The notes under the pieces: generated by a model
Databases searched by the model: none
What the model saw: the letters and a program-made list of their open reading frames with translations, nothing else
Told to the model about the DNA's origin: nothing
In this document: piece by piece, positions 1-8,358 of the stretch
How positions within the stretch are numbered: the first letter of the stretch is position 1
Layout: every line of letters starts with the position of its first letter
Sequence record: PZ347661.1
Length of the DNA: 64,000 nucleotides
Strand: one strand, 5' to 3'
Source: a phage
Made by a program: the position numbers and the translations under genes

Positions 1-86
1 GGCTGAGGCTACACCCTTACACTCAACTAGCCCCCCCGGTATGTTGACGGTGTAGCCACCACCCTACCCCACCTTACACGTTACAC

Positions 87-99
87 GTTGCTCCGCAAC
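87..99 (+). promoter_or_regulatory. Hairpin promoter candidate of the N4 virion-RNAP type (stem GTTGC/GCAAC, loop TCC, then CTATGG)
   Basis: Inverted repeat with 3-nt loop read directly; same architecture and CTCCGC core as the hairpins at 756, 1016 and 5877; lies ~45 nt upstream of the first ORF. Confidence 0.5.
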
Positions 100-142
100 C
101 TATGGACATGTCGTCCTATCATCAACTATTGGAGCTATCATC

Positions 143-466
143 ATGACTACTCAAGCTACTGTACGTATGACCGCAGGAACTTTACTTGGTACTGTTAACT
201 CAGCTGCTACTACTGTTGCAGATACATTCAGCACAGCAACTAAAGCAGTAGGTATGCTTAATTCATATGTTAGTACGATGGCAGAGAAACAAGCCATTCG
301 TACTAAATTAGAAATGCATACCTTTGTTAATAAACTGGCAGAGGAAACAGCTATGACTGAGACTCTGCGTAAGAAAAGTATCGAGGAATTCTGCAAGGAT
401 TCAGAGAACGCTCGAATCTATAACGCAGAATATTCCAAAGTAATCGACATCCTGACTAAAGACTAA
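143..466 (+). CDS. hypothetical early protein (107 aa)
   Basis: ORF with GGAG RBS about 8 nt upstream; between hairpin promoter and terminator. Confidence 0.6.
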   Translation: MTTQATVRMTAGTLLGTVNSAATTVADTFSTATKAVGMLNSYVSTMAEKQAIRTKLEMHTFVNKLAEETAMTETLRKKSIEEFCKDSENARIYNAEYSKVIDILTKD

Positions 467-473
467 GTCATCA

Positions 474-499
474 AGGAGACTCTTCGGAGTCTCCTTTTA
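474..499 (+). terminator. intrinsic terminator (9-bp GC-rich stem, TTCG loop, T tract)
   Basis: AGGAGACTC-TTCG-GAGTCTCCT followed by TTTTAT. Confidence 0.7.
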
Positions 500-554
500 T
501 AAACATTAGATAGATAATCAAAAGTAGATAACTATCTACTTTAGGAGAAGTAAA

Positions 555-749
555 ATGTCCGTGACAGAATGCAAATCTGAAAGTCCAGGAGAAGCTTTGG
601 AAAGATTCGAAAAAGCTTTGATGGATTACCAACACGCTTTAACAATTCATCGCTTAGACTTCGATACAGAAGACGATTTGCCTGATTTAAAGGCAAAGAT
701 GGAAACTGCTAAGGAAGAACTTCTAACCTGGTTGTCTTACATTCCTTAA
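555..749 (+). CDS. hypothetical early protein (64 aa)
   Basis: ORF with AGGAG RBS. Confidence 0.55.
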   Translation: MSVTECKSESPGEALERFEKALMDYQHALTIHRLDFDTEDDLPDLKAKMETAKEELLTWLSYIP

Positions 750-755
750 AACCCG

Positions 756-770
756 AGAAGCTCCGCTTCT
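756..770 (+). promoter_or_regulatory. Hairpin promoter candidate of the N4 virion-RNAP type (stem AGAAGC/GCTTCT, loop TCC, then GTTGG)
   Basis: Perfect 6-bp inverted repeat with 3-nt loop; complementary strand reads GAAGCGGAGCTTC; conserved with 1016 and 5877. Confidence 0.6.
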
Positions 771-794
771 GTTGGATACAATTAGGAGACAACC

Positions 795-1010
795 ATGAAC
801 GTAGAAAATATCCGTATAATTGAGAATTGCTTTAGTAATAAACCTGTAGACCTCAGCAACGCAAGAAGGTCTACAGATAAAGAGTATGGAAAGTTTCTAT
901 CCTTACTCGATGAGTATCGTATGCAAGGGCATGTTGAATTACATGCTTATCTGCATAACTCAGGCTACTTCATGGACAAACTGGAAGCTAATACAGGCTG
1001 TCCATTCTGA
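795..1010 (+). CDS. hypothetical early protein (71 aa)
   Basis: ORF with AGGAGA RBS. Confidence 0.55.
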   Translation: MNVENIRIIENCFSNKPVDLSNARRSTDKEYGKFLSLLDEYRMQGHVELHAYLHNSGYFMDKLEANTGCPF

Positions 1011-1015
1011 AAACC

Positions 1016-1030
1016 AGACGCTCCGCGTCT
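1016..1030 (+). promoter_or_regulatory. Hairpin promoter candidate of the N4 virion-RNAP type (stem AGACGC/GCGTCT, loop TCC, then TATGG)
   Basis: Perfect 6-bp inverted repeat with 3-nt loop; same pattern as 756 and 5877. Confidence 0.6.
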
Positions 1031-1166
1031 TATGGAGTGCGTAGCACAACCTTCGAAGAAGGTTATGATGTAAATGCATCCACTAATCATTGAACTTTTA
1101 TCCTTTTGTTTGGGTGTTCTCACCGACGAGTTCACCCGTAAATCACATAAATCTGGAGAGTACAAA

Positions 1167-1547
1167 ATGTCTATTCAAAAATTCACTTTCGGTCAATCTA
1201 ACGCTGCTGCTACCACTGCTAAAGCTGATAAACCAAAAGCTCAGTTATGGCTGAACATTGGTTATGTAGCTAATGAAGGCTCTGATGATGAGAAATTCAT
1301 CTCTCTGCCTACTGGTATTCCACTGGATACTCAGGAACCACTGCCTACTAACAGTAGCAATGCTGACTTCCGTGCTATGCGTTGTGCACAGAACGATTTG
1401 CTGGAACAGTTAATCGCATATGCTCAGAACCTGGAACCAGGTGAAGAAGGTATCATTAACCTGCAAGTTCAACTTCGTCGTGTGAAAGCAGAGGCTGCTG
1501 ACATCCCAGCAGACGAGAATAAATATGCTCGTAAACTGACTTTCTAA
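1167..1547 (+). CDS. hypothetical early protein (126 aa); track ORF 1074 trimmed to the ATG with GGAG RBS
   Basis: ATG at 1167 preceded by CTGGAGAG; position would fit N4 early transcription factors but no motif supports that. Confidence 0.55.
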
Positions 1548-1557
1548 TCAACTACTA

Positions 1558-1586
1558 GACTCCCTTCGGGGAGTCTTTTATTTTTA
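1558..1586 (+). terminator. intrinsic terminator (GACTCCC-TTCG-GGGAGTC plus T tract)
   Basis: 7-bp stem, tetraloop, TTTTATTTTT tail. Confidence 0.7.
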
Positions 1587-1690
1587 ACTATGCGAAAGGC
1601 TATTTCTACTTTTTGAGTATCTTTAGACGAAGGGTACTGAAACAGTAACCAGATAGATATAGATTTATATTAGATGAAGGAGTAACCATT

Positions 1691-1876
1691 ATGCGTACAA
1701 TTTGTAACCGTTATAATTCACAGAAGATGATTGTTATGTTGCAACCATGGGGCAGTAAGATGACACTAAATGCACGTTGGCAGGTATCTGTAAAAGATGA
1801 GAATGGTCACTGCTATGACCACTTCTTTGTAACTAAACCTACTCGTAAACAAATTCGTAAACTTCATAAGGCATAA
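1691..1876 (+). CDS. hypothetical protein (61 aa)
   Basis: ORF with GAAGGAG RBS. Confidence 0.5.
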   Translation: MRTICNRYNSQKMIVMLQPWGSKMTLNARWQVSVKDENGHCYDHFFVTKPTRKQIRKLHKA

Positions 1877-1880
1877 GACT

Positions 1881-2099
1881 ATGTTGGACTTCATTGCGTT
1901 TGTAATACTCTGTTATGTGCTATATCGCCTACGTGGTTACATCCTCAATGGAGCCAAGTGGGTAAGAACTAAGCTGGTACTTATCTGTAAGTTACCTGTT
2001 GTATTCGTTAAGTGTCTGTTTGCTTCCATCATAGCCAAAGAAGTTCGTAAGCAACTCTGGGCTAAGGAAGCAGAAGAGTTTGCAAAGAGGAACCAGTGA
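1881..2099 (+). CDS. hypothetical small hydrophobic protein (72 aa)
   Basis: ORF tightly packed after previous gene; weak RBS. Confidence 0.4.
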   Translation: MLDFIAFVILCYVLYRLRGYILNGAKWVRTKLVLICKLPVVFVKCLFASIIAKEVRKQLWAKEAEEFAKRNQ

Positions 2100-2278
2100 T
2101 ATTCACTAACATAGAAGATGCCATTGAAGAATGTATCTTTCGTAGGTATCACACTGGTATACAGAAACGACACTATGGTGTTGTACAACTCAATGGCTAT
2201 CAAATGGTTGTAAGAATTGTACGTAAGAGTAAACCTTTTAACTTTATGTGGAGTACTAAATCATGCGTAAGTCATTAA
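2096..2278 (+). CDS. hypothetical protein (60 aa, GTG start)
   Basis: ORF with non-ATG start overlapping previous stop. Confidence 0.3.
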   Translation: MIFTNIEDAIEECIFRRYHTGIQKRHYGVVQLNGYQMVVRIVRKSKPFNFMWSTKSCVSH

Positions 2279-2391
2279 TCATGGGAACCAAAGAAGACGT
2301 ACAAAAGATGAAAGAGCGTCTGGCTGCTAAGAAACAGACATCTGAACCAGTACGTAAGATTGTTACCTTCAATCATCCGTGTATCAAATAA
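2263..2391 (+). CDS. hypothetical small basic protein (42 aa, below the ORF-track cutoff)
   Basis: ATG with GGAG about 9 nt upstream; ends right before a terminator. Confidence 0.3.
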   Translation: MRKSLIMGTKEDVQKMKERLAAKKQTSEPVRKIVTFNHPCIK

Positions 2392-2396
2392 CAAGG

Positions 2397-2427
2397 AGTC
2401 CTCCATTAGGGGGACTTCTATTTTTTA
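2397..2427 (+). terminator. intrinsic terminator (8-bp stem, ATTA loop, T tract)
   Basis: AGTCCTCC-ATTA-GGGGGACT followed by TCTATTTTTT. Confidence 0.6.
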
Positions 2428-2502
2428 TTCCTGAATAGTTAGACCCGAAGGGTCAACCGTACGAAGTACGGTTAGATATGTATTTAAATAGGAGAAATAA
2501 CC

Positions 2503-2820
2503 TTGAATGAAATTGTTTGTATACTTCCTCAATCAGCTAAGATAGCTGACCGGAATATACGTATCCACTTACCATTCCCATTAAGCAATCCATTCACTCG
2601 TAATGAAAGAACCACAGTAGAAGACGTGGAGGTAGCTTATGAGGCTTACCTTCGTAATCGTCTTATTAGTGGTGACAAGTTAATTACAGCAGAGATGGAA
2701 AGGATTGCATCCTTTGTAACAGATAGTACAGGTAAGCCTGTTGGCTTAATTGGTACTGAATCTGATGTGAATGTTATTCGTAAAATATTAATGGAGGCAC
2801 TAAGTGAACAACCTCAGTGA
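2503..2820 (+). CDS. hypothetical protein (105 aa, TTG start)
   Basis: ORF with AGGAG 8 nt upstream of TTG. Confidence 0.45.
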   Translation: MNEIVCILPQSAKIADRNIRIHLPFPLSNPFTRNERTTVEDVEVAYEAYLRNRLISGDKLITAEMERIASFVTDSTGKPVGLIGTESDVNVIRKILMEALSEQPQ

Positions 2821-3037
2821 TGTAATTGTAGGTAATGAGATATTCGTTGACCGAAAAGGTTATGCCCGAATTAAACTAAAGGGTACTAACAGAACTATTG
2901 TTCGTAAGGTGTACTCTAAACCTTTTAGCAATTTCTCTATTGATGAAGTACGTATTAATAACAGGATGTACTTCATAGATAGTAAAGTATCTGTATGTCA
3001 TACAGATGGTAAAACCTCTCTTGAATATACTTACTAA
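2804..3037 (+). CDS. hypothetical protein (77 aa, GTG start)
   Basis: ORF overlapping previous gene end. Confidence 0.35.
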   Translation: MNNLSDVIVGNEIFVDRKGYARIKLKGTNRTIVRKVYSKPFSNFSIDEVRINNRMYFIDSKVSVCHTDGKTSLEYTY

Positions 3038-3049
3038 GGAATAAACAAA

Positions 3050-3271
3050 ATGTTGTTCAGCACTAATTATGGTATTTGCCCGATTTGCAATAAAGGAAGA
3101 GGAGTTGCTAATCATAAGAAGTGTAGTCGTATTCTACAGAAACAACGGAACCAGAAAGAATGGGATAAGATATTGGAAAACCAACACAAAGATGAGTTCA
3201 AGAAGACAGCTGTTAAGGCATCTACTCAGCTCATTCGTCGTACTAACTTCATAGAAGGTTATCAGAAATGA
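3050..3271 (+). CDS. hypothetical protein with N-terminal CPICNK motif (73 aa)
   Basis: ORF with AAGGA RBS; Cys pair may indicate a zinc ribbon. Confidence 0.5.
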   Translation: MLFSTNYGICPICNKGRGVANHKKCSRILQKQRNQKEWDKILENQHKDEFKKTAVKASTQLIRRTNFIEGYQK

Positions 3272-3624
3272 AACTAATCGTAGCTGGTGGAAGAGACTTC
3301 GTAGATACCAATCGTATGATTGAGGAATTACAGAAGTTAGTAAATTCAGGGAATATACCTGAATGCCCAGAATTAGTATGTGGCATGGCTCGTGGAGCAG
3401 ATATATTAGCTTTCCGTCTATGGAAATCTGCAAATATGCAGATACATGTATTCCCTGCTGAATGGGATACCTATGGCAAGTCTGCTGGATTCCGTAGGAA
3501 TAAAGAAATGGGTGAATTTGCAGATGCTGCTGTATGTTTCTGGGATGGTAAATCCAAAGGAACCAAGCACATGATTGATATCATGAATAGGCTTAATAAA
3601 CCTGTATACGTTGTGAGGTACTAA
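3268..3624 (+). CDS. Rossmann-like SLOG/DUF2493-like protein (118 aa)
   Basis: LIVAGGRDF ... CGMARGADILA pattern resembles LOG/DprA-type nucleotide-binding folds; family assignment is an inference. Confidence 0.5.
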   Translation: MKLIVAGGRDFVDTNRMIEELQKLVNSGNIPECPELVCGMARGADILAFRLWKSANMQIHVFPAEWDTYGKSAGFRRNKEMGEFADAAVCFWDGKSKGTKHMIDIMNRLNKPVYVVRY

Positions 3625-3882
3625 ATGATTATTACATATCCTACAGGCAAGAACGTAGATTATATGGGACATACTATCCAAGTACCACATTGGGTTAAGT
3701 ATATAGCTTTATATACTCGGCAATATAAAAGTGCTAATACCTCATTAATAGGATTCTCTAAGAAACCTAAGCTAACAGAAAACAATATCTGGGTATCCTC
3801 TGGGAGACAAGAAGAGATTGGTTTTTGTGATTTGAGTATTATCGATAATAACGTTTACCTAACGCTGGAGAAAGTAGCATGA
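3625..3882 (+). CDS. hypothetical protein (85 aa)
   Basis: ORF in tight operon. Confidence 0.45.
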   Translation: MIITYPTGKNVDYMGHTIQVPHWVKYIALYTRQYKSANTSLIGFSKKPKLTENNIWVSSGRQEEIGFCDLSIIDNNVYLTLEKVA

Positions 3883-4070
3883 ATATTGAAAATTATGAAA
3901 TCACTTTAGTAACAGCAGATAGTAAAACTGTGATTAAAAAACAATTAAATAATGACCCCGAGATGCTTAACTGGGTTGCAGAGCAATTTGCTGATGTTAA
4001 CTCAGCACAGGTAACCATACGGAATATGTCAGGAAAAGTAGTAGCATTTACAGGCAAGGAGCCAGTATGA
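3879..4070 (+). CDS. hypothetical protein (63 aa)
   Basis: ORF, start overlaps previous stop. Confidence 0.45.
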   Translation: MNIENYEITLVTADSKTVIKKQLNNDPEMLNWVAEQFADVNSAQVTIRNMSGKVVAFTGKEPV

Positions 4071-4381
4071 AAACTATTTTAGTAGTCCATGATTCTACAT
4101 TTACTGATGTAGATAAGATGATGCGTAATATTGATTATGTATCTCAGACAAGCCAAGCATTCAATGAAGAGTTTACTCTGTACTGTAATGCTGAATCACC
4201 ACTGGTTCCTATCCTTAAGGAATCAGGTCTACCATTCTCTACAGAGAACTTCCCGGAAGAACCGGACTATGTAATCTCATTTATCTATGACTTACATGAT
4301 GGTTCTGAAACCAGTGAATTAGCTATGAACCAGTGGCGTAGTAAACGTCCTGTGTTCGCATTTCAGGTACTTAAGCCATGA
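4067..4381 (+). CDS. hypothetical acidic protein (104 aa)
   Basis: ORF, ATGA overlap coupling. Confidence 0.5.
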   Translation: MKTILVVHDSTFTDVDKMMRNIDYVSQTSQAFNEEFTLYCNAESPLVPILKESGLPFSTENFPEEPDYVISFIYDLHDGSETSELAMNQWRSKRPVFAFQVLKP

Positions 4382-4620
4382 TATATGAAGAATATTACGT
4401 ATTTAAAAAAGGAGATGAGTTTATAGCCATGCCTGATGATTACATTGATTGGCATACAACTCCAGTATTAAGCGAAGCATTTTCCGTACCTAACCTAGAA
4501 GAGGTTAATAAAGTAATGAACGGGGTAATGTTAACTAGAGGACTAGCTTATAAAATAGACGCATTAGAAGGAACTACTGTATGTAAAGTAGTTACATCTA
4601 TTGAGGTACTTAAACCATGA
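4378..4620 (+). CDS. hypothetical protein (80 aa)
   Basis: ORF, overlap coupling. Confidence 0.5.
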   Translation: MIYEEYYVFKKGDEFIAMPDDYIDWHTTPVLSEAFSVPNLEEVNKVMNGVMLTRGLAYKIDALEGTTVCKVVTSIEVLKP

Positions 4621-4997
4621 AGATTATGTCATTAGGTGACGACACCAATGCTTTACTAGGTGTATCTGCACGCCCAATCATCATTGTTAATAAACATCAC
4701 GGTAAATCCGGTGAGTATATTGGACGTGGCTCACCATTAGGCAATCCATTCGTTATTGGTAAAGACGGTTCGAGAGAACAGGTTATAGCCAAGTATCGAG
4801 TATGGCTTAATGAACAAATTATGAGAAAGAATCCAGTTGTACTGGATGAACTTAATCGTCTTGGTAATAAAGCCATTGACGAGAAAGGATTAGCCTTACA
4901 GTGCTTCTGCTATCCAAAACCATGTCATGGTGAGGTTATTAAAGAGAAGCTAGTAAAGGCTATGTATAACTACTTTGTAGAAAACCCAAAAGGATAA
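4617..4997 (+). CDS. DUF4326-like protein (126 aa)
   Basis: GRGSPLGNPF motif; family assignment from memory, needs HMM confirmation. Confidence 0.5.
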   Translation: MKIMSLGDDTNALLGVSARPIIIVNKHHGKSGEYIGRGSPLGNPFVIGKDGSREQVIAKYRVWLNEQIMRKNPVVLDELNRLGNKAIDEKGLALQCFCYPKPCHGEVIKEKLVKAMYNYFVENPKG

Positions 4998-5000
4998 TTT

Positions 5001-5360
5001 ATGAAAGAAATCCTAGTATTCACTACTAATACACTAGGGCAGCATACCAATGCTGCTGCCAAGCTAGCTTATAAGAAGCATGGTGCTCGCTGGGGTATGG
5101 CCTATGGTCATTACGGTAATAGCTTTGCCATTCCAGTAAGGGATGGCAGTGGTAACCGAATTAAAGAAGGTGCTATCTATGGCTTCGTTGAAGGCTTTAT
5201 TTCCTATGCATCTACTAATCCTCAGTGGGATTTCAAAGTAATGGGGGATGACTTTCTGGACCCATACCTGTTCAATAATGTCACTGGCAATGTGCTATTG
5301 CCAGAAGCATGGCGTAAATACTTAGGTGATGCTTACAACTACTGGGGAACCTCCTCATGA
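5001..5360 (+). CDS. hypothetical protein (119 aa)
   Basis: ORF with AAAGGA RBS. Confidence 0.55.
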   Translation: MKEILVFTTNTLGQHTNAAAKLAYKKHGARWGMAYGHYGNSFAIPVRDGSGNRIKEGAIYGFVEGFISYASTNPQWDFKVMGDDFLDPYLFNNVTGNVLLPEAWRKYLGDAYNYWGTSS

Positions 5361-5533
5361 CTAAAAAAGAGCGCAGTCAATTACAATCCTTAATACGTAA
5401 ACATGTAGCAGCTCAAGTTGCTCTATCATGGTCTGGTTCTCAAGATCCAGAAGACAGAGAAATAATTGAAGCCAATGCAGAGTATGCAAAGCGTAAATTA
5501 TACAATTGGATTTCAATGAGAGTAGACCAATAA
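5357..5533 (+). CDS. hypothetical small protein (58 aa)
   Basis: ATGA overlap with previous stop fills a gap without ORF-track entries. Confidence 0.35.
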   Translation: MTKKERSQLQSLIRKHVAAQVALSWSGSQDPEDREIIEANAEYAKRKLYNWISMRVDQ

Positions 5534-5607
5534 ATGGAGTTACTAACTTATTTAATAGTCCTATGGTCCATAGGTGGAACCACTGTATGGCTTATACCGG
5601 AGATACT

Positions 5608-5871
5608 ACCATGACATATGAAGAACTGTGGTCTGCTCAAGTCAGAGCCAGAGCACTCACACGGCATGACATCTATTGTGCATTACAAAATGAATTAAAG
5701 AGTCGTACTAAACTAGGCCACATATCTGGCTTCATCAAAATACCTATGACTAGCCTAGTCTGGCCTTATCAGAAGAAAAGTAATGAGTTTAATGGTAATG
5801 GTCTGCATGTACGCATCGACTACATTGGTAATGAAAATAGTATTCGTATTACCTTTTGGACCAAACGTTAG
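5608..5871 (+). CDS. hypothetical protein (87 aa; track ORF 5506 trimmed to ATG with GGAG RBS)
   Basis: ATG at 5608 preceded by CCGGAGATACTACC; start uncertain. Confidence 0.35.
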   Translation, partial: TMTYEELWSAQVRARALTRHDIYCALQNELKSRTKLGHISGFIKIPMTSLVWPYQKKSNEFNGNGLHVRIDYIGNENSIRITFWTKR

Positions 5872-5876
5872 GTAAT

Positions 5877-5891
5877 AGCTGCTCCGCAGCT
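5877..5891 (+). promoter_or_regulatory. Hairpin promoter candidate of the N4 virion-RNAP type (stem AGCTGC/GCAGCT, loop TCC, then TTTGG)
   Basis: Perfect 6-bp inverted repeat with TCC loop, immediately upstream of the RNAP II genes. Confidence 0.55.
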
Positions 5892-5924
5892 TTTGGTTAT
5901 TAATCATATTTAGGAGAATAAGCG

Positions 5925-6743
5925 ATGTACTCATCTATTGAACATCAGAAGCAACTTGAAATCCTTTTCAACAAGAATCAATTACTCCCTCGCATGAGGA
6001 AGGAATTCGAGGACTCCGAAGAAATTGACTTTAAGGCATTTGCTGCCTATTTAGAAATTGATTATAAGCTGCTCATTGATGCAATGGTGCAGATTGCCCT
6101 ACATAAACGTGCTGACATTCAGACTATGATTGGCTCTCTCATGAGTCACTCAGATGATGCTCAGTACATCGCTGACTGTCTGTATAAGATGGCAGAGAAT
6201 GACTGCTTCAACTATGACCCTACCATCGACAAGTTCGGTGTTATCTATGAGATTAGTGAAGATGTTCAGATGGAACTGGAAGCATTCCAGTATCCTTTGC
6301 CTATCGTAAGTGCTCCTAAGCCTGTTAAGTGTAACCGTGATACTGGTTACTACGAAAGCAGAGGTAGCATCATCCTCAAGAAGAACCATCATGAGATGGA
6401 TGTCTGTCTTGATCACATCAACCGCATGAATAACCAACGTCTCTGCATTAACTGGGACGTTGCTAACTATGTAAAAGACTCTCGTCCTAATATGGATAAA
6501 CCTAAAGAGGGTGAAACCCGTCAGGACTATGAGAAACGTGTCAAAGCCTTTGAGAAGTACAGCCGTACAGCTAAGGAAGTAATGGAGTTAGTGACCAAGG
6601 AAGGTAATAACTTCTCTCTGGCTCACAAATATGACAAACGTGGGCGTACATATGCCTGTGGCTACCACATCAACTATCAGGGAACCAGTTACAACAAAGC
6701 TGTTCTGGAGTTCGCTGATAAGGAGCTAGTAAACAATGATTAA
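5925..6743 (+). CDS. phage RNA polymerase II small subunit (N4 gp15-like, 272 aa)
   Basis: Size and position match the N4 two-subunit RNAP II (recalled sizes 269 and 404 aa); adjacent to the large subunit, which carries polymerase motifs. Confidence 0.65.
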   Translation: MYSSIEHQKQLEILFNKNQLLPRMRKEFEDSEEIDFKAFAAYLEIDYKLLIDAMVQIALHKRADIQTMIGSLMSHSDDAQYIADCLYKMAENDCFNYDPTIDKFGVIYEISEDVQMELEAFQYPLPIVSAPKPVKCNRDTGYYESRGSIILKKNHHEMDVCLDHINRMNNQRLCINWDVANYVKDSRPNMDKPKEGETRQDYEKRVKAFEKYSRTAKEVMELVTKEGNNFSLAHKYDKRGRTYACGYHINYQGTSYNKAVLEFADKELVNND

Positions 6744-6846
6744 TCATCGTGCAGTAGCTGACTTCTACGCTCACAGAGAACTAGTGTTAAAACGTATTAA
6801 CGAAGCTCTCAAACGTGAGGCAGAGGCCAAACGTAAACGTAAATAA
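6736..6846 (+). CDS. hypothetical small basic protein (36 aa) between the RNAP II subunit genes
   Basis: ATG with AGGAGC RBS; very short, speculative. Confidence 0.25.
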   Translation: MINHRAVADFYAHRELVLKRINEALKREAEAKRKRK

Positions 6847-6900
6847 ATCCAATAAGCAGGCTCTCCATAGTGGGGAGCCAAGAAGCAAAAGGAACATAAA

Positions 6901-8118
6901 ATGCAACTGTTAACCGCTAAAGAATACCTGAAAGTAGATATCGCCAATAACTATGGCTTAGATAAGAAGACATGGGATGAACGTATTGCCTGGTTCGATG
7001 AGAACGAAGCTAACCTGCTTAATCTGGTAGATGAAGCTGAAGATTCTGCTCTGTTCTTTGCAGGTGTAAATGCATGGAAAGACATGAAAGCTGGTAAACC
7101 TATCGGTTATGCCGTAGCTCTGGATGCTACATCATCTGGCTTACAGTTACTGGCTTGCCTGACTGGTGACCGTTCTGCTGCTGAACTGTGTAACGTAGTT
7201 AACTATATGGGTGAGAATGGTAAACCCTTACGTCGTGATGCTTATACAGTTATCTATCACAAGATGCTGGACATCCTTGGTGAAGCATCACGTATTAAAC
7301 GTAGTGACACTAAGCAGGCAGTTATGACTGCATTCTACGGTTCAGAAGCCAAGCCTAAAGAAGTATTCGGTGAAGGTATTCGTCTCAAGACTTTTGAGAA
7401 TGTAATGGAAACTGTTGCTAGTGGTCCTTGGGCACTTAACAAGTTCTTACTGCAATGTGGTAATCCTGATGCTAACCGTTACGTATGGGTACTTCCTGAC
7501 AACTTCCATGCTGTCATTAAGGTCATGGTTCCAGAAGTACAGACTGTTAACTTCTTAGGTAAACCATTCGACATCACTCGTATGGTTCAGGGTACTGAAG
7601 AGAAGACTCGTATGCTCTCTGCTAACATTACCCACTCTATTGATGGGATGGTAGTACGTGAGATGCTGCGTCGTTGTAACTTCGACCCTAAACTGGTTGC
7701 CTATGTACGTGAACTATGTGATATCGGGCCAAGCAATTATCCTGCTATCGAAGGGAACCTGGAAATGACTATGGAAATTTGGAATCATTATGAGAAGTCT
7801 GGGTTCCTGTCACTATCTATTCTGGACTACCTTGACCCGAATACCATTGCATTGGTAGACCGTCAGGTAATAGCAGATATGATTGACACTCTGCCTAAGA
7901 AACCATTCCCTGTAATGACTGTACATGACTGCTTCCGTTGTCATCCTAACTACGGTAATGACCTGCGTCGTCAGTACAATCAGATTCTGTCTGATATTGC
8001 TAAGAGTGACCTACTGGGCTTCATCTTGTCTCAGGTACTAGGACAAGAGTTCTCCGCTGGTAAGCTGGATGACAGCCTCTGGCAGGACATTCTTGAAACA
8101 GACTATGCATTAAGTTAA
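6901..8118 (+). CDS. phage RNA polymerase II large subunit (N4 gp16-like, 405 aa)
   Basis: KQAVMTAFYGS resembles motif B and TVHDCF motif C of T7-like single-subunit RNAPs; size matches N4. Confidence 0.8.
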   Translation: MQLLTAKEYLKVDIANNYGLDKKTWDERIAWFDENEANLLNLVDEAEDSALFFAGVNAWKDMKAGKPIGYAVALDATSSGLQLLACLTGDRSAAELCNVVNYMGENGKPLRRDAYTVIYHKMLDILGEASRIKRSDTKQAVMTAFYGSEAKPKEVFGEGIRLKTFENVMETVASGPWALNKFLLQCGNPDANRYVWVLPDNFHAVIKVMVPEVQTVNFLGKPFDITRMVQGTEEKTRMLSANITHSIDGMVVREMLRRCNFDPKLVAYVRELCDIGPSNYPAIEGNLEMTMEIWNHYEKSGFLSLSILDYLDPNTIALVDRQVIADMIDTLPKKPFPVMTVHDCFRCHPNYGNDLRRQYNQILSDIAKSDLLGFILSQVLGQEFSAGKLDDSLWQDILETDYALS

Positions 8119-8125
8119 TAAACTA

Positions 8126-8159
8126 GCCTCATTCCTTCGGGAGTGAGGCATATTTTTTG
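8126..8159 (+). terminator. intrinsic terminator (10-bp stem with TTCG loop, T tract)
   Basis: GCCTCATTCC-TTCG-GGAGTGAGGC followed by ATATTTTTT. Confidence 0.65.
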
Positions 8160-8175
8160 CTTGGAGGTAATAACT

Positions 8176-8358
8176 ATGCTAATCCCTTTTGAAGTAATCT
8201 CTCAGCTAATACTGATAGTTTTATCTGTACTGGTTCTGTCTACAATAGTTCATGCCCACAAATCTAAGTTTGCTTGCTACTGTTATGGAGCATACTCGCT
8301 AGGCTGCTTTGTAATGGCAGGATGGATAGCTTTTGCTGTCTACTGTGTAAACAACTAA
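8176..8358 (+). CDS. small membrane protein (60 aa)
   Basis: ATG with GGAGG RBS; two hydrophobic segments. Confidence 0.4.
   Translation: MLIPFEVISQLILIVLSVLVLSTIVHAHKSKFACYCYGAYSLGCFVMAGWIAFAVYCVNN

What the first reader, a model, noticed from the sequence alone, without database searches (positions are those of the whole stretch)
3268..5360. Early-region cluster of small overlapping ORFs including SLOG-like and DUF4326-like candidates
Seven or eight short genes are translationally coupled by ATGA or 4-nt overlaps. One (3268-3624) has a Rossmann-like GG..GaD signature seen in LOG/DprA-type nucleotide-processing proteins, and one (4617-4997) has a GNPF motif I associate with DUF4326. Early phage gene blocks of this kind commonly encode host-takeover or anti-defence functions, so this is where undescribed activities would be expected.
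Basis: partly seen in the sequence, partly recalled or inferred. Interest (0 to 1): 0.45.

Follow-up and report, generated by a model that had tools for sequence, protein, structure and literature searches.

The report
N4-type early counter-defence gene block
This is the tightly packed early gene block of a G7C/N4-like coliphage; it really does encode SLOG and DUF4326 proteins, plus a decayed macrodomain, a decayed DUF4326 copy and a Dmd-like mini-protein, a known but untested toolkit predicted to disarm NAD/ADP-ribose-based bacterial immunity.

Summary
Eight short + strand ORFs (3268-5533) are joined by six ATGA overlaps. Both domain guesses pass Pfam's curated cut-offs: 3268-3624 is a YAcAr-family SLOG and 4617-4997 is DUF4326.

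The window is a Gamaleyavirus (G7C-like, N4-like) phage. The block lies between N4-type virion-RNAP promoter hairpins and the RNAPII genes.

The real unit is larger (2503-5871). Its core is conserved in all 14 relatives, including N4:
- o105 = N4 gp9, shown here to be a degenerate DUF4326 paralogue lacking the invariant CxCxPxxCH motif
- o104 = gp11, unknown
- DUF4326 = gp12, whose closest fold is RapZ-C and Cys-phosphatases
- 5001-5360 = gp14, a TARG1/DarG-type macrodomain fold. The window's allele has lost the lysine and the RIGCGLAG loop.

SLOG (7/14), a Dmd-like 63-aa ORF (2/14) and others are swap-in cassettes.

In unrelated viral contigs, SLOG is the commonest neighbour or fusion partner of DUF4326, followed by NADAR and Macro. 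This reproduces the association published by the Aravind lab. The most likely function is counter-defence against NAD+/ADP-ribose/nucleotide-based immunity. That function is inferred, not shown.

It is a new member of a known kind, of modest interest.

The parts
87..99 (+). N4 vRNAP early-promoter-like hairpin GTTGC-TCC-GCAAC followed by cTATGGA
   Evidence: N4 has the homologous GTTGC-TTC-GCAAC at position 90. It fits the 'GC-rich heptamer flanked by inverted repeats' description in PMC4496689.
756..770 (+). Early-promoter-like hairpin AGAAGC-TCC-GCTTCT followed by gTTGGA
   Evidence: Same stem as the N4 hairpin at 557, upstream of gp2.
1016..1030 (+). Early-promoter-like hairpin AGACGC-TCC-GCGTCT followed by TATGGA, upstream of the gp2 homologue (1074-1547)
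   Evidence: Conserved in relatives with compensatory stem changes.
2394..2419 (+). Terminator-like hairpin plus T-run, immediately upstream of the block
   Evidence: Conserved in 11 of 14 relatives.
2503..2820 (+). o105 = N4 gp9 homologue. A degenerate DUF4326 paralogue: the CxCxPxxCH and GRG motifs are lost while LxNPF and the AY..YL helix are kept. Core gene, 14/14 loci.
   Evidence: BLASTP against the window's DUF4326, E=6e-7. Pfam DUF4326 below threshold, 16.7 bits. hhalign 97.8% probability, E=1e-12, 87 columns. Matrix. N4 gp9 at 73% identity.
2804..3037 (+). o77, accessory small ORF (3/14 loci), unknown function
3050..3271 (+). o73, small ORF with a CPICN...HKKC motif (possible zinc ribbon), 11/14 loci
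   Evidence: phrog_6887 E=7e-43. Matrix.
3268..3624 (+). YAcAr-family SLOG protein with all 13 invariant family residues present. An accessory cassette (7/14 loci) inserted cleanly between o73 and o85.
   Evidence: Pfam PF10686 E=1e-8, above the gathering score. phrog_289 E=2e-30. 4885 homologues. 1337 phage records. Invariant columns. Matrix.
3625..3882 (+). o85, near-core small ORF (13/14 loci), unknown function
   Evidence: phrog_1972 E=4e-20. Matrix.
3879..4070 (+). o63, a Dmd-like mini-protein and candidate antitoxin mimic. Rare accessory cassette (2/14 loci; 11 phage records).
   Evidence: phrog_2102 Dmd E=3.5e-4. PDB 5i8j Dmd E=0.92. My own Dmd HMM scores 19.8 bits against a maximum of 10.9 in 5000 shuffles. 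hhalign 84.8% probability, E=6.5e-6. Distribution.
4067..4381 (+). o104 = N4 gp11 homologue. Core gene (14/14 loci), always upstream of DUF4326; fold and function unknown.
   Evidence: phrog_7827 E=2e-59. Matrix. N4 gp11 at 82% identity. No link to SLOG or Macro.
4378..4620 (+). o80, accessory small ORF (3/14 loci), unknown function
4617..4997 (+). DUF4326 protein = N4 gp12 homologue. Core gene, 74-98% identical across the 14 loci, with invariant C96, C98, P100, C103 and H104. The closest fold is RapZ C-terminal domain and Cys-phosphatases.
5001..5360 (+). Macro-like protein = N4 gp14 family (NCBIfam A1S_2505_Nterm), with a TARG1/DarG-type macrodomain fold. The window carries the short, degenerate allele: TK becomes VR, GAGAA becomes TNAAA, and the RIGCGLAG loop is deleted.
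5357..5533 (+). o58, small ORF specific to this window among the 14 relatives
   Evidence: phrog_27846 E=2e-5 and DUF7438 E=0.007. Matrix.
5611..5871 (+). o86, last gene of the block (10/14 loci), unknown function
   Evidence: phrog_14487 E=4e-60. Matrix.
5877..5891 (+). Early-promoter-like hairpin AGCTGC-TCC-GCAGCT followed by TTTGG, between the block and RNAP1
   Evidence: Present at this position in every relative that covers it, with compensatory stem changes. N4 has its equivalent at 4546, between gp14 and gp15.
5925..8118 (+). Context: N4 RNAPII subunit genes (gp15 homologue 5925-6743, gp16 homologue 6901-8118), which mark the right edge of the early region

Best explanation
The finding is the central part of the left-end, pre-replicative gene block (2503-5871) of a G7C-like (Gamaleyavirus) N4-type coliphage. 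The block is a translationally coupled string of small genes. It has a conserved core shared with N4: gp9-like degenerate DUF4326, gp11-like o104, gp12-like DUF4326 and gp14-like macrodomain. Exchangeable single-gene cassettes are spliced between the core genes: YAcAr SLOG, a Dmd-like ORF, o80, o77 and o58.

Shown: the domain identities, the core/accessory structure, and the fact that DUF4326 is preferentially adjacent to or fused with SLOG, NADAR and Macro domains in unrelated viruses.

Inferred mechanism: the block is expressed from the injected genome end and acts as a counter-defence kit against immunity that uses NAD+/ADP-ribose- or nucleotide-derived chemistry.
- The SLOG protein binds, and possibly cleaves at the ribosyl-base bond, an AMP/ADPr-derived signal or nucleotide.
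- The DUF4326 protein is a RapZ-C/Cys-phosphatase-fold enzyme with an invariant cysteine loop. It removes or transfers a phosphate on the ribose of such a product, or on a nucleic-acid end.
- The gp14-type macrodomain binds or removes ADP-ribose. In this window's allele the lysine and the phosphate loop are gone, so it is probably a non-catalytic binder or decoy.
- The cysteine-less gp9-like DUF4326 copy is likewise a pseudo-enzyme.
- The Dmd-like ORF would neutralise RnlA/LsoA-type RNase toxins.
For: Domain identities.

Phage identity and synteny with N4 gp1-gp16.

Early-region placement. There are four (stem)GC-TCC-GC(stem) hairpins. All are intergenic, on the + strand and within the first 6 kb. 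They are conserved with compensatory stem changes and match the three such hairpins in N4, as the review PMC4496689 describes. Sigma-70-like promoters are depleted, 9 found against 25 +/- 5 expected.

Functional linkage. In 69 diverse DUF4326 loci, every SLOG ORF found (8 loci) abuts or is fused to DUF4326, and none lies elsewhere in the +/-5 kb flanks. YAcAr is the top Pfam family among 110 immediate neighbours, with SIR2 and PARP as singletons. Of the 30 longest DUF4326 representatives, 7 carry YAcAr, 2 DprA-like, 1 YpsA, 1 cpYpsA, 3 NADAR and 1 Macro.

Literature. The same association and an ADPr-processing prediction are published (PMC9503650, PMC7824862). A SLOG/LOG-like phage protein, ORF83, is an experimentally identified anti-Avs3 protein, and its amoeba-virus homologues carry C-terminal DUF4326.

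Arms-race signature: clean presence/absence of cassettes and two divergent gp14 alleles about 50% identical to each other.

Dmd-like signal.
Against: There is no experimental function for any of these proteins in N4-like phages. No hit to any PADLOC model and no solved relative by sequence.

In the window, SLOG and DUF4326 are not adjacent (about 1 kb and four ORFs apart). SLOG is dispensable (7/14 loci), so the two need not act together here.

The window's macrodomain lacks its catalytic and binding motifs, so an ADPr-hydrolase step cannot be assigned to it.

The acidic residue after the SLOG G-T motif varies (H101 here; D in ORF83 and S in Tunisvirus), so catalysis as opposed to binding is open.

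In T4-like phages DUF4326 is NrdA.1 and sits beside ribonucleotide reductase and thymidylate synthase genes. Some copies are fused to UDG or a 3'-5' exonuclease. That points towards nucleotide/DNA metabolism rather than ADPr signalling.

A conserved terminator-like hairpin precedes the block, so its timing (early read-through or middle) is not established.
Confidence: 0.55

Rival explanations
1. Nucleotide-pool or DNA-precursor/modification role. DUF4326 (T4 NrdA.1 family) and a LOG-like SLOG phosphoribohydrolase would reshape host nucleotide pools or process DNA ends or bases for phage replication, not for immune evasion.
For: DUF4326 homologues in T-even and other large phages lie next to nrdA/nrdB/nrdD/td. 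There are fusions to the UDG superfamily (L048) and to a 3'-5' exonuclease. Neighbours include Thy1, IMPDH and DNA polymerases. PMC7824862 itself proposed a bridge to DNA modification. LOG-type SLOGs hydrolyse AMP.
Against: In N4-like phages the genes sit in the left-end block, far from the replication module. The commonest partners are SLOG, NADAR and Macro rather than nucleotide-synthesis enzymes. The window SLOG belongs to the YAcAr/YpsA-like branch, not the LOG branch.
Confidence: 0.2
2. General host takeover or transcription-switch accessory proteins. The small proteins would bind and inhibit host machinery, or tune vRNAP/RNAPII, as N4 gp1 and gp2 do. The enzyme-like folds would act only as binding scaffolds (pseudo-enzymes).
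For: Two of the four fold-assigned core proteins have lost their family's invariant catalytic residues yet are strictly conserved. The block lies between the cofactor genes gp1/gp2 and the RNAPII genes. The N4 review assigns early products to the set-up of middle transcription.
Against: gp12-like DUF4326 keeps every invariant residue and is the most conserved protein in the block. The SLOG also keeps all its invariant residues. Intact active-site-like motifs argue for small-molecule or nucleic-acid chemistry.
Confidence: 0.15
3. The database labels are correct: 3268-3624 is a DprA-like DNA-processing (RecA-loading) protein or a GTP-binding protein, and 4617-4997 is an NrdA-like ribonucleotide reductase.
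For: GenBank and PHROG annotations of the homologues. SLOG and DprA share a Rossmannoid core. Some more distant SLOG neighbours give a sub-threshold DNA_processg_A hit.
Against: The window protein is 118 aa, a bare SLOG core. It gives no Pfam DprA hit at E<=1 and shows no P-loop. The EVADES preprint notes that ORF83 lacks DprA's dimerisation and RecA-binding residues. 'NrdA-like' is a naming artefact of the T4 gene nrdA.1 (row H68). A 126-aa protein cannot be a ribonucleotide reductase, and its fold is RapZ-C/phosphatase-like.
Confidence: 0.03

Closest known systems
Viral SLOG / DUF4326 / Macro / NADAR 'ADPr-processing' gene neighbourhoods and fusions (Iyer, Burroughs, Aravind et al.: Viruses 2021 PMC7824862; Viruses 2022 PMC9503650)
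   Same: The same Pfam families (YAcAr SLOG, DUF4326) plus a macrodomain-fold protein, in one co-directional block near the genome end that enters the cell first. My own census reproduces the adjacency and fusion pattern.
   Different: Here the three are separate small genes interspersed with unknown ORFs rather than fused or adjacent. SLOG is optional. The macrodomain allele is degenerate. There is an extra cysteine-less DUF4326 paralogue (gp9-like), which I did not find mentioned in those two papers.
ORF83, a phage anti-Avs type III protein (Gao et al. 2022, as analysed in the EVADES preprint 10.1101/2025.06.06.658234)
   Same: A small stand-alone SLOG/LOG/DprA-like Rossmannoid protein. It has an R-N ... 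G-T motif with nearly the same spacing: R89-N90/T112 in ORF83, R73-N74/T95 in the Tunisvirus homologue, and R77-N78/T99 here. Its homologues are fused to DUF4326.
   Different: The residue two positions after the T is H here, against D in ORF83. No anti-Avs activity is known for N4-like phages.
RapZ C-terminal domain and the Cys-dependent phosphatase/rhodanese fold (Burroughs & Aravind 2023, NAR Genom Bioinform lqad029; I recall a 'RapZ-C-DUF488-DUF4326 clade' from memory; the paper was not readable here and only its citation was confirmed)
TARG1 (OARD1/C6orf130) and DarG antitoxin macrodomains
   Same: They are the top structural neighbours of ORF 5001-5360. The wider gp14 family shares TARG1's T-K and RIGCGL motifs in register. 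N4 gp14 keeps both.
   Different: The window's allele has VR in place of TK and lacks the whole RIGCGLAG loop and the GAGAA motif. The Pfam Macro model does not match it. Even the long form has A where I recall TARG1 has the catalytic D125.
T4 Dmd (discriminator of mRNA degradation; antitoxin of RnlA/LsoA)
   Same: Same size (63 against 60 aa). There is a collinear core, xxLNWVAEQFADVNSAQV against DDVQWATTQYAEVNKALV, with significant profile scores.
   Different: Only about 20-25 residues align. The Pfam Dmd model does not report it, and tblastn in either direction finds nothing. The host toxin target is unknown.
Coliphage N4 early region, gp1-gp16
   Same: Collinear homologues of gp1, gp2, gp6, gp9, gp11, gp12, gp14, gp15 and gp16 at 47-91% identity. 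The hairpin promoters are homologous too.
   Different: N4 lacks the SLOG, o73, o85, o63, o80 and o58 genes, and it carries the intact long gp14 allele.

Membership tests
SLOG superfamily, YAcAr family (PF10686) | Score above Pfam's gathering threshold | tested here: met
   35.3 bits against 28.2, E=1e-8, model positions 1-66 of 66. phrog_289 E=2e-30.
SLOG superfamily, YAcAr family (PF10686) | Conserved nucleotide-binding motifs: glycine loop after strand 1, G..GAD, R-N, and S.G-T | tested here: met
   G7, R9, G39, G43, A44, D45, W66, A73, G74, R77, N78, M81 and G98 are invariant in A7, and all are present in the window protein.
SLOG superfamily, YAcAr family (PF10686) | Rossmannoid three-layer alpha/beta fold | not tested
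DprA/Smf (PF02481) | Match to the DprA model, plus extra domains for dimerisation and RecA binding | tested here: not met
   No DNA_processg_A hit at E<=1 for the window protein. At 118 aa it contains only the SLOG core.
DUF4326 (PF14216) | Score above the gathering threshold | tested here: met
   81.1 bits against 25, E=9e-23.
DUF4326 (PF14216) | Invariant residues of the family (GRG.PLGNPF, R, Y, CxCxPxxCH) | tested here: met
   C96, C98, P100, C103, H104, G36, R37, L41, G42, N43, P44, R53 and Y60 are all present.
DUF4326 (PF14216), for o105 (2503-2820) | The same invariant residues | tested here: not met
   It is homologous (hhalign 97.8%), but the cysteine motif is deleted or replaced and GRG has become HLP. 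The Pfam score of 16.7 is below the cut-off of 25. It is therefore filed as a degenerate paralogue, not a functional member.
Cys-dependent phosphatase / rhodanese fold | Fold similarity | tested here: met
Cys-dependent phosphatase / rhodanese fold | CX5R catalytic P-loop signature | tested here: not met
   The sequence reads C96-F-C98-Y-P-K-P-C103-H-G-E-V-I-K109. No Arg lies at +6 from any of the cysteines (direct reading).
Macrodomain, TARG1/DarG type | Macro fold | tested here: met
Macrodomain, TARG1/DarG type | Match to the Pfam Macro model (PF01661) | tested here: not met
   No hit at E<=1. The NCBIfam A1S_2505_Nterm model is matched instead (83.5 bits against 45).
Macrodomain, TARG1/DarG type | Catalytic lysine (TARG1 K84) and the phosphate-binding loop (RIGCGL) | tested here: not met
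   The window has V-R at the T-K position and an 8-residue deletion of RIGCGLAG. N4 gp14 and the other long alleles keep both.
Dmd antitoxin family | Significant profile match | tested here: inconclusive
   PHROG 2102 E=3.5e-4. My own HMM gives 19.8 bits, with 0 of 5000 shuffles reaching it. hhalign 84.8%. But only about 23 columns align, there is no Pfam hit, and the PDB match has E=0.92.
Dmd antitoxin family | Binding and neutralisation of RnlA/LsoA | not testable with these tools
   Needs co-expression or binding assays.
N4 early (vRNAP-transcribed) genes | Location downstream of hairpin promoters (GC-rich heptamer flanked by inverted repeats) at the left genome end | tested here: met
   Hairpins at 87, 756, 1016 and 5877 are homologous to the three in N4. 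Description in PMC4496689.
N4 early (vRNAP-transcribed) genes | Rifampicin-resistant transcription within the first minutes of infection | not testable with these tools
   No expression data. A terminator-like hairpin (2394-2419) precedes the block.
ORF83-type anti-Avs3 proteins | Sequence homology to ORF83, and inhibition of Avs3 | not testable with these tools
   The ORF83 sequence is not in the held text or supplements. Only motif spacing could be compared.

The most novel reading that the evidence does not exclude
The conserved core of N4-like early regions (gp9, gp11, gp12, gp14) may be one pathway in which pseudo-enzymes partner active enzymes. The cysteine-less DUF4326 copy (gp9-like) and, in G7C-type phages, the loop-deleted macrodomain would act as non-catalytic sponges or decoys, or as regulatory subunits, for an ADP-ribose-derived immune signal or for ADP-ribosylated nucleic acid. 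The intact DUF4326 (and SLOG, where present) would then destroy that molecule. If so, this would be a new sponge-plus-eraser anti-defence strategy built from decayed enzyme folds.
Probability: 0.1. Interest if true: 0.7.

Novelty: new member of a known kind. Interest (0 to 1): 0.35.

Why it matters
N4 is a classical model phage, yet its small early genes other than gp1/gp2 and RNAPII have no assigned roles. This analysis gives a short, concrete candidate list for anti-defence screening:
- gp12-type DUF4326
- gp14-type macrodomain, in two natural alleles, one apparently dead
- gp9-type dead DUF4326
- an optional SLOG related in kind to the only SLOG-like protein with a known anti-defence phenotype
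- a possible Dmd analogue outside the T-even phages

The natural presence/absence variants among sequenced Gamaleyaviruses are ready-made isogenic-like controls. It also flags three misleading database labels: 'DprA', 'GTP-binding domain' and 'NrdA-like ribonucleotide reductase'.

Tried and rejected
1. o104 (4067-4381) as a degenerate SLOG paralogue, suggested by its MKTILVVHD..F.D start. BLASTP E=1.3 and hhalign probability 1-4%. It also shows no relation to the Macro-like family, and a PDB profile search gave only noise. Rejected; the fold remains unknown.
2. SLOG and the Macro-like ORF as paralogues: BLASTP E=5.7. Rejected.
3. An all-against-all hhalign of 13 block families gave only two signals, o105-DUF4326 and o63-Dmd. 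The other 76 pairs were below 5%.
4. PADLOC: no hits for any ORF.
5. Sequence searches of PDB with the single proteins found nothing useful.
6. A DUF4326 profile against PDB sequences gave only chance-level hits. The relation to RapZ-C and phosphatases is visible only at fold level.
7. Direct comparison with ORF83 was not possible. Gao et al. 2022 is not held, and the EVADES supplements lack the sequence.
8. Burroughs & Aravind 2023 is not held, so I used only the confirmed citation plus memory.
9. The literature search for 'YAcAr' returned almost only caiman papers and nothing useful for this protein family.
10. The search for related loci with T4 Dmd found only near-identical copies, so diverse Dmd sequences were fetched record by record.
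11. No correlation was seen between SLOG presence and the long or short gp14 allele.


Full report
OBSERVATION. The gene junctions are as described: six ATGA four-base overlaps, one direct stop/start abutment and one 3-nt gap between 3268 and 5533. GG(R)D and G..GAD fall on invariant columns of my SLOG alignment. GNPF falls on nearly invariant columns of a 118-sequence DUF4326 alignment. Pfam assigns 3268-3624 to YAcAr, a SLOG family (PF10686, 35.3 bits against a curated cut-off of 28.2). It assigns 4617-4997 to DUF4326 (PF14216, 81.1 bits against 25). PHROGs agrees. The observation and both domain guesses are confirmed.

WHAT THE WINDOW IS. Megablast of 2400-6000 finds 61 phage records, essentially all G7C-like coliphages of the genus Gamaleyavirus (Schitoviridae, N4-like). 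Relatives annotate the same genes as 'DUF4326 domain-containing protein', 'DNA processing protein DprA', 'GTP-binding domain', 'ADP-ribosylglycohydrolase' and 'antirepressor'. Mapping N4's own annotated genes onto the window gives collinear homologues of gp1, gp2, gp6, gp9, gp11, gp12, gp14, gp15 and gp16.

TRANSCRIPTIONAL CONTEXT. The intergenic gaps of the first 6 kb contain four hairpins of the exact form (stem)GC-TCC-GC(stem), each followed by TxTGG, at 87, 756, 1016 and 5877. All are on the + strand and intergenic. No other hairpin in the 64-kb window has the GC-TCC-GC core. They are conserved in all 14 related loci with compensatory changes in the stems. N4 has exactly three in its first 9.5 kb: at 90, at 557 (upstream of gp2) and at 4546 (between gp14 and gp15). 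This matches the published description of N4's three virion-RNAP early promoters, a GC-rich heptamer centred at -11 flanked by inverted repeats and confined to the left end that is injected first (PMC4496689). Sigma-70-like promoters are depleted in 1-8300, with 9 found against 25 +/- 5 in shuffles.

The block therefore lies inside the region bracketed by early promoters and by the early RNAPII genes. A conserved terminator-like hairpin at 2394-2419 sits directly before the block. 'Early' is therefore a well-supported inference from position, not a demonstrated fact.

THE UNIT IS LARGER AND HAS A CORE. I fetched 80 viral contigs that encode a DUF4326 relative. With three GenBank relatives this gave 14 close loci. 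Presence and identity of every window ORF in them were as follows.
- Core: o105 (2503-2820) 14/14; o104 (4067-4381) 14/14; DUF4326 14/14; ORF 5001-5360 in 13 of the 13 loci that cover it.
- Near-core: o85 13/14; o73 11/14; o86 10/14.
- Accessory: SLOG 7/14; o80 3/14; o77 3/14; o63 2/14.
- o58: essentially unique to the window.

Where the SLOG gene is absent, o73 runs straight into o85 with the same overlap, so it is a clean single-gene cassette. The order o104, (o80), DUF4326, (0-2 small ORFs), gp14-like is fixed.

The family is a conserved left-end gene of N4-like phages: 324 records, LIT1 annotates it 'N4 gp14-like', and several records call it 'macrodomain protein'. N4 gp14 keeps all three motifs. 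The window's copy, like that of G7C (98% identical), reads FTTNTLGQHTNAAA, AIPVRD, and has an 8-residue deletion of RIGCGLAG. Long (126-128 aa) and short (115-119 aa) alleles about 50% identical to each other coexist within the genus. By the criteria of the TARG1 mechanism, I conclude that the window's protein is a non-catalytic descendant of a TARG1/DarG-type macrodomain.

A HIDDEN PARALOGUE. The first gene of the block, o105 (N4 gp9), lies just outside the finding's coordinates. It is a DUF4326 homologue: BLASTP against the window's own DUF4326 gives E=6e-7, Pfam gives a sub-threshold 16.7 bits, and profile-profile comparison gives 97.8% probability, E=1e-12, over 87 columns (reproduced). 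It keeps LxNPF and the following helix. It has HLP in place of GRG and a 4-residue deletion with no cysteines in place of CxCxPxxCH. It is nevertheless strictly conserved. The block therefore carries one intact and one 'dead' DUF4326.

ARE SLOG AND DUF4326 FUNCTIONALLY LINKED? I ran HMMs built here over all ORFs of the 69 diverse DUF4326 loci. They find a SLOG ORF in 8 loci. In every case it directly abuts the DUF4326 gene or is fused to it, and none lies elsewhere in the +/-5 kb flanks. Pfam confirms a DUF4326-YAcAr fusion in L073 and YAcAr neighbours in L018 and L047. Among 110 immediate same-strand neighbours, YAcAr is the most frequent Pfam family (5), and SIR2 and a PARP catalytic domain occur once each. 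Among the 30 longest DUF4326 representatives the partner domains are YAcAr 7, NADAR 3, DUF488-N3a 3, DprA-like 2, YpsA 1, cpYpsA 1, Macro 1 and a 3'-5' exonuclease 1. This independently reproduces the association reported by Iyer, Burroughs, Aravind and colleagues, who predict that viral SLOG, Macro, NADAR and DUF4326 divide the labour of degrading ADP-ribose-derived immune signals or toxins (PMC7824862, PMC9503650). The only experimental anchor is ORF83, a SLOG/LOG/DprA-like phage protein that defeats type III Avs and whose amoeba-virus homologues carry C-terminal DUF4326. Its R-N...G-T motif spacing matches the window protein (R77-N78...G98-T99). I could not obtain its sequence to test homology.

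A DMD-LIKE CASSETTE. The 63-aa ORF 3879-4070 gave a weak PHROG hit to Dmd (E=3.5e-4), and PDB Dmd 5i8j appeared at E=0.92. I built a Dmd profile from six T-even lineages. It scores the ORF at 19.8 bits. None of 5,000 shuffles exceeds 10.9, and no other window ORF exceeds 2 bits. hhalign gives 84.8% probability, E=6.5e-6. The match is collinear in proteins of equal length but covers only about 23 residues, and tblastn finds nothing in either direction. I treat it as a credible remote homologue whose function is untested.

MECHANISM. See Best explanation. The shown steps are identities, folds, motif loss, core/accessory structure and cross-virus linkage. The inferred steps are early expression, the counter-defence role and the substrates. 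The main rival is a nucleotide/DNA-metabolism role for DUF4326 and SLOG, supported by the T4-like genomic context next to nrd and td genes and by the UDG and exonuclease fusions.

NOVELTY AND SCORE. The sequences are in GenBank in dozens of phages. The families are curated and their association is published, with a predicted function. New here, and modest, are four points:
- the gp9-type degenerate DUF4326 paralogue
- the assignment of the N4 gp14 family to the TARG1/DarG macro type, with a naturally decayed allele in G7C-type phages
- the Dmd-like cassette
- the core/accessory map tied to N4 gene numbers

A specialist would not be surprised, but the block is a good, well-defined target list for anti-defence screening. 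I rate it a new member of a known kind, interest 0.35.

Noticed in passing
window 2439-2471: A 33-bp insertion (GTTAGACCCGAAGGGTCAACCGTACGAAGTACG) that is absent from all alignable relatives. It is flanked by a GTTAGA direct repeat and carries two GAA-triloop hairpins (2442-2454 and 2455-2473). It lies between the conserved terminator-like hairpin and the first gene of the block. Its function is unknown.
   Followed up: partly
window 87-99, 756-770, 1016-1030, 5877-5891: N4 virion-RNAP promoter-like hairpins, (stem)GC-TCC-GC(stem) followed by TxTGG. The window has four where N4 has three, the 756 and 1016 pair looking like a duplication of the N4 P2-type site. They are conserved with compensatory stem changes in 14 relatives.
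   Followed up: yes
window 1-8300: Sigma-70-like promoter matches are strongly under-represented (9 against 25 +/- 5 in shuffles), while terminator-like hairpins are over-represented (15 against 5 +/- 2.4). Three terminator-like hairpins have TTCG tetraloops, at 475-494, 1557-1576 and 8126-8149.
   Followed up: no
window 1691-1876: A 61-aa ORF that matches Pfam DUF7279 (E=7e-10, above its cut-off). It is another uncharacterised small early gene.
   Followed up: no
window 3050-3271: The 73-aa ORF directly upstream of the SLOG gene has a C-P-I-C ... H-K-K-C pattern suggesting a small zinc ribbon. phrog_6887; present in 11/14 relatives.
   Followed up: no
L048:4677-5501 and L073:3812-4549 (also L074): Unusual DUF4326 architectures in metagenomic viral contigs. 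In L048 a DUF4326 domain is embedded in a UDG-superfamily protein. L073 and L074 carry a DUF4326-YAcAr SLOG fusion.
   Followed up: partly
phage records H34, H68, H81-H83; phrog_24867 and phrog_289: Annotation artefacts propagate in phage databases. DUF4326 proteins are labelled 'NrdA-like ribonucleotide reductase' because the T4 member is named nrdA.1. YAcAr SLOG proteins are labelled 'GTP-binding domain' or 'DprA'.
   Followed up: yes
L001-L014 and databases: Evolutionary rates differ sharply within the block. DUF4326 is 94-100% identical across more than 100 database clusters, whereas the SLOG protein ranges from 64 to 96%, and gp14 exists as two alleles about 50% identical to each other.
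   Followed up: partly
L003:3444-3767 (phage 24-32N Gp8), homologue of window 4067-4381: Some GenBank records label the o104/N4 gp11 homologue 'antirepressor protein' and a neighbouring small ORF 'endonuclease'. I found no profile support for either label.
   Followed up: partly
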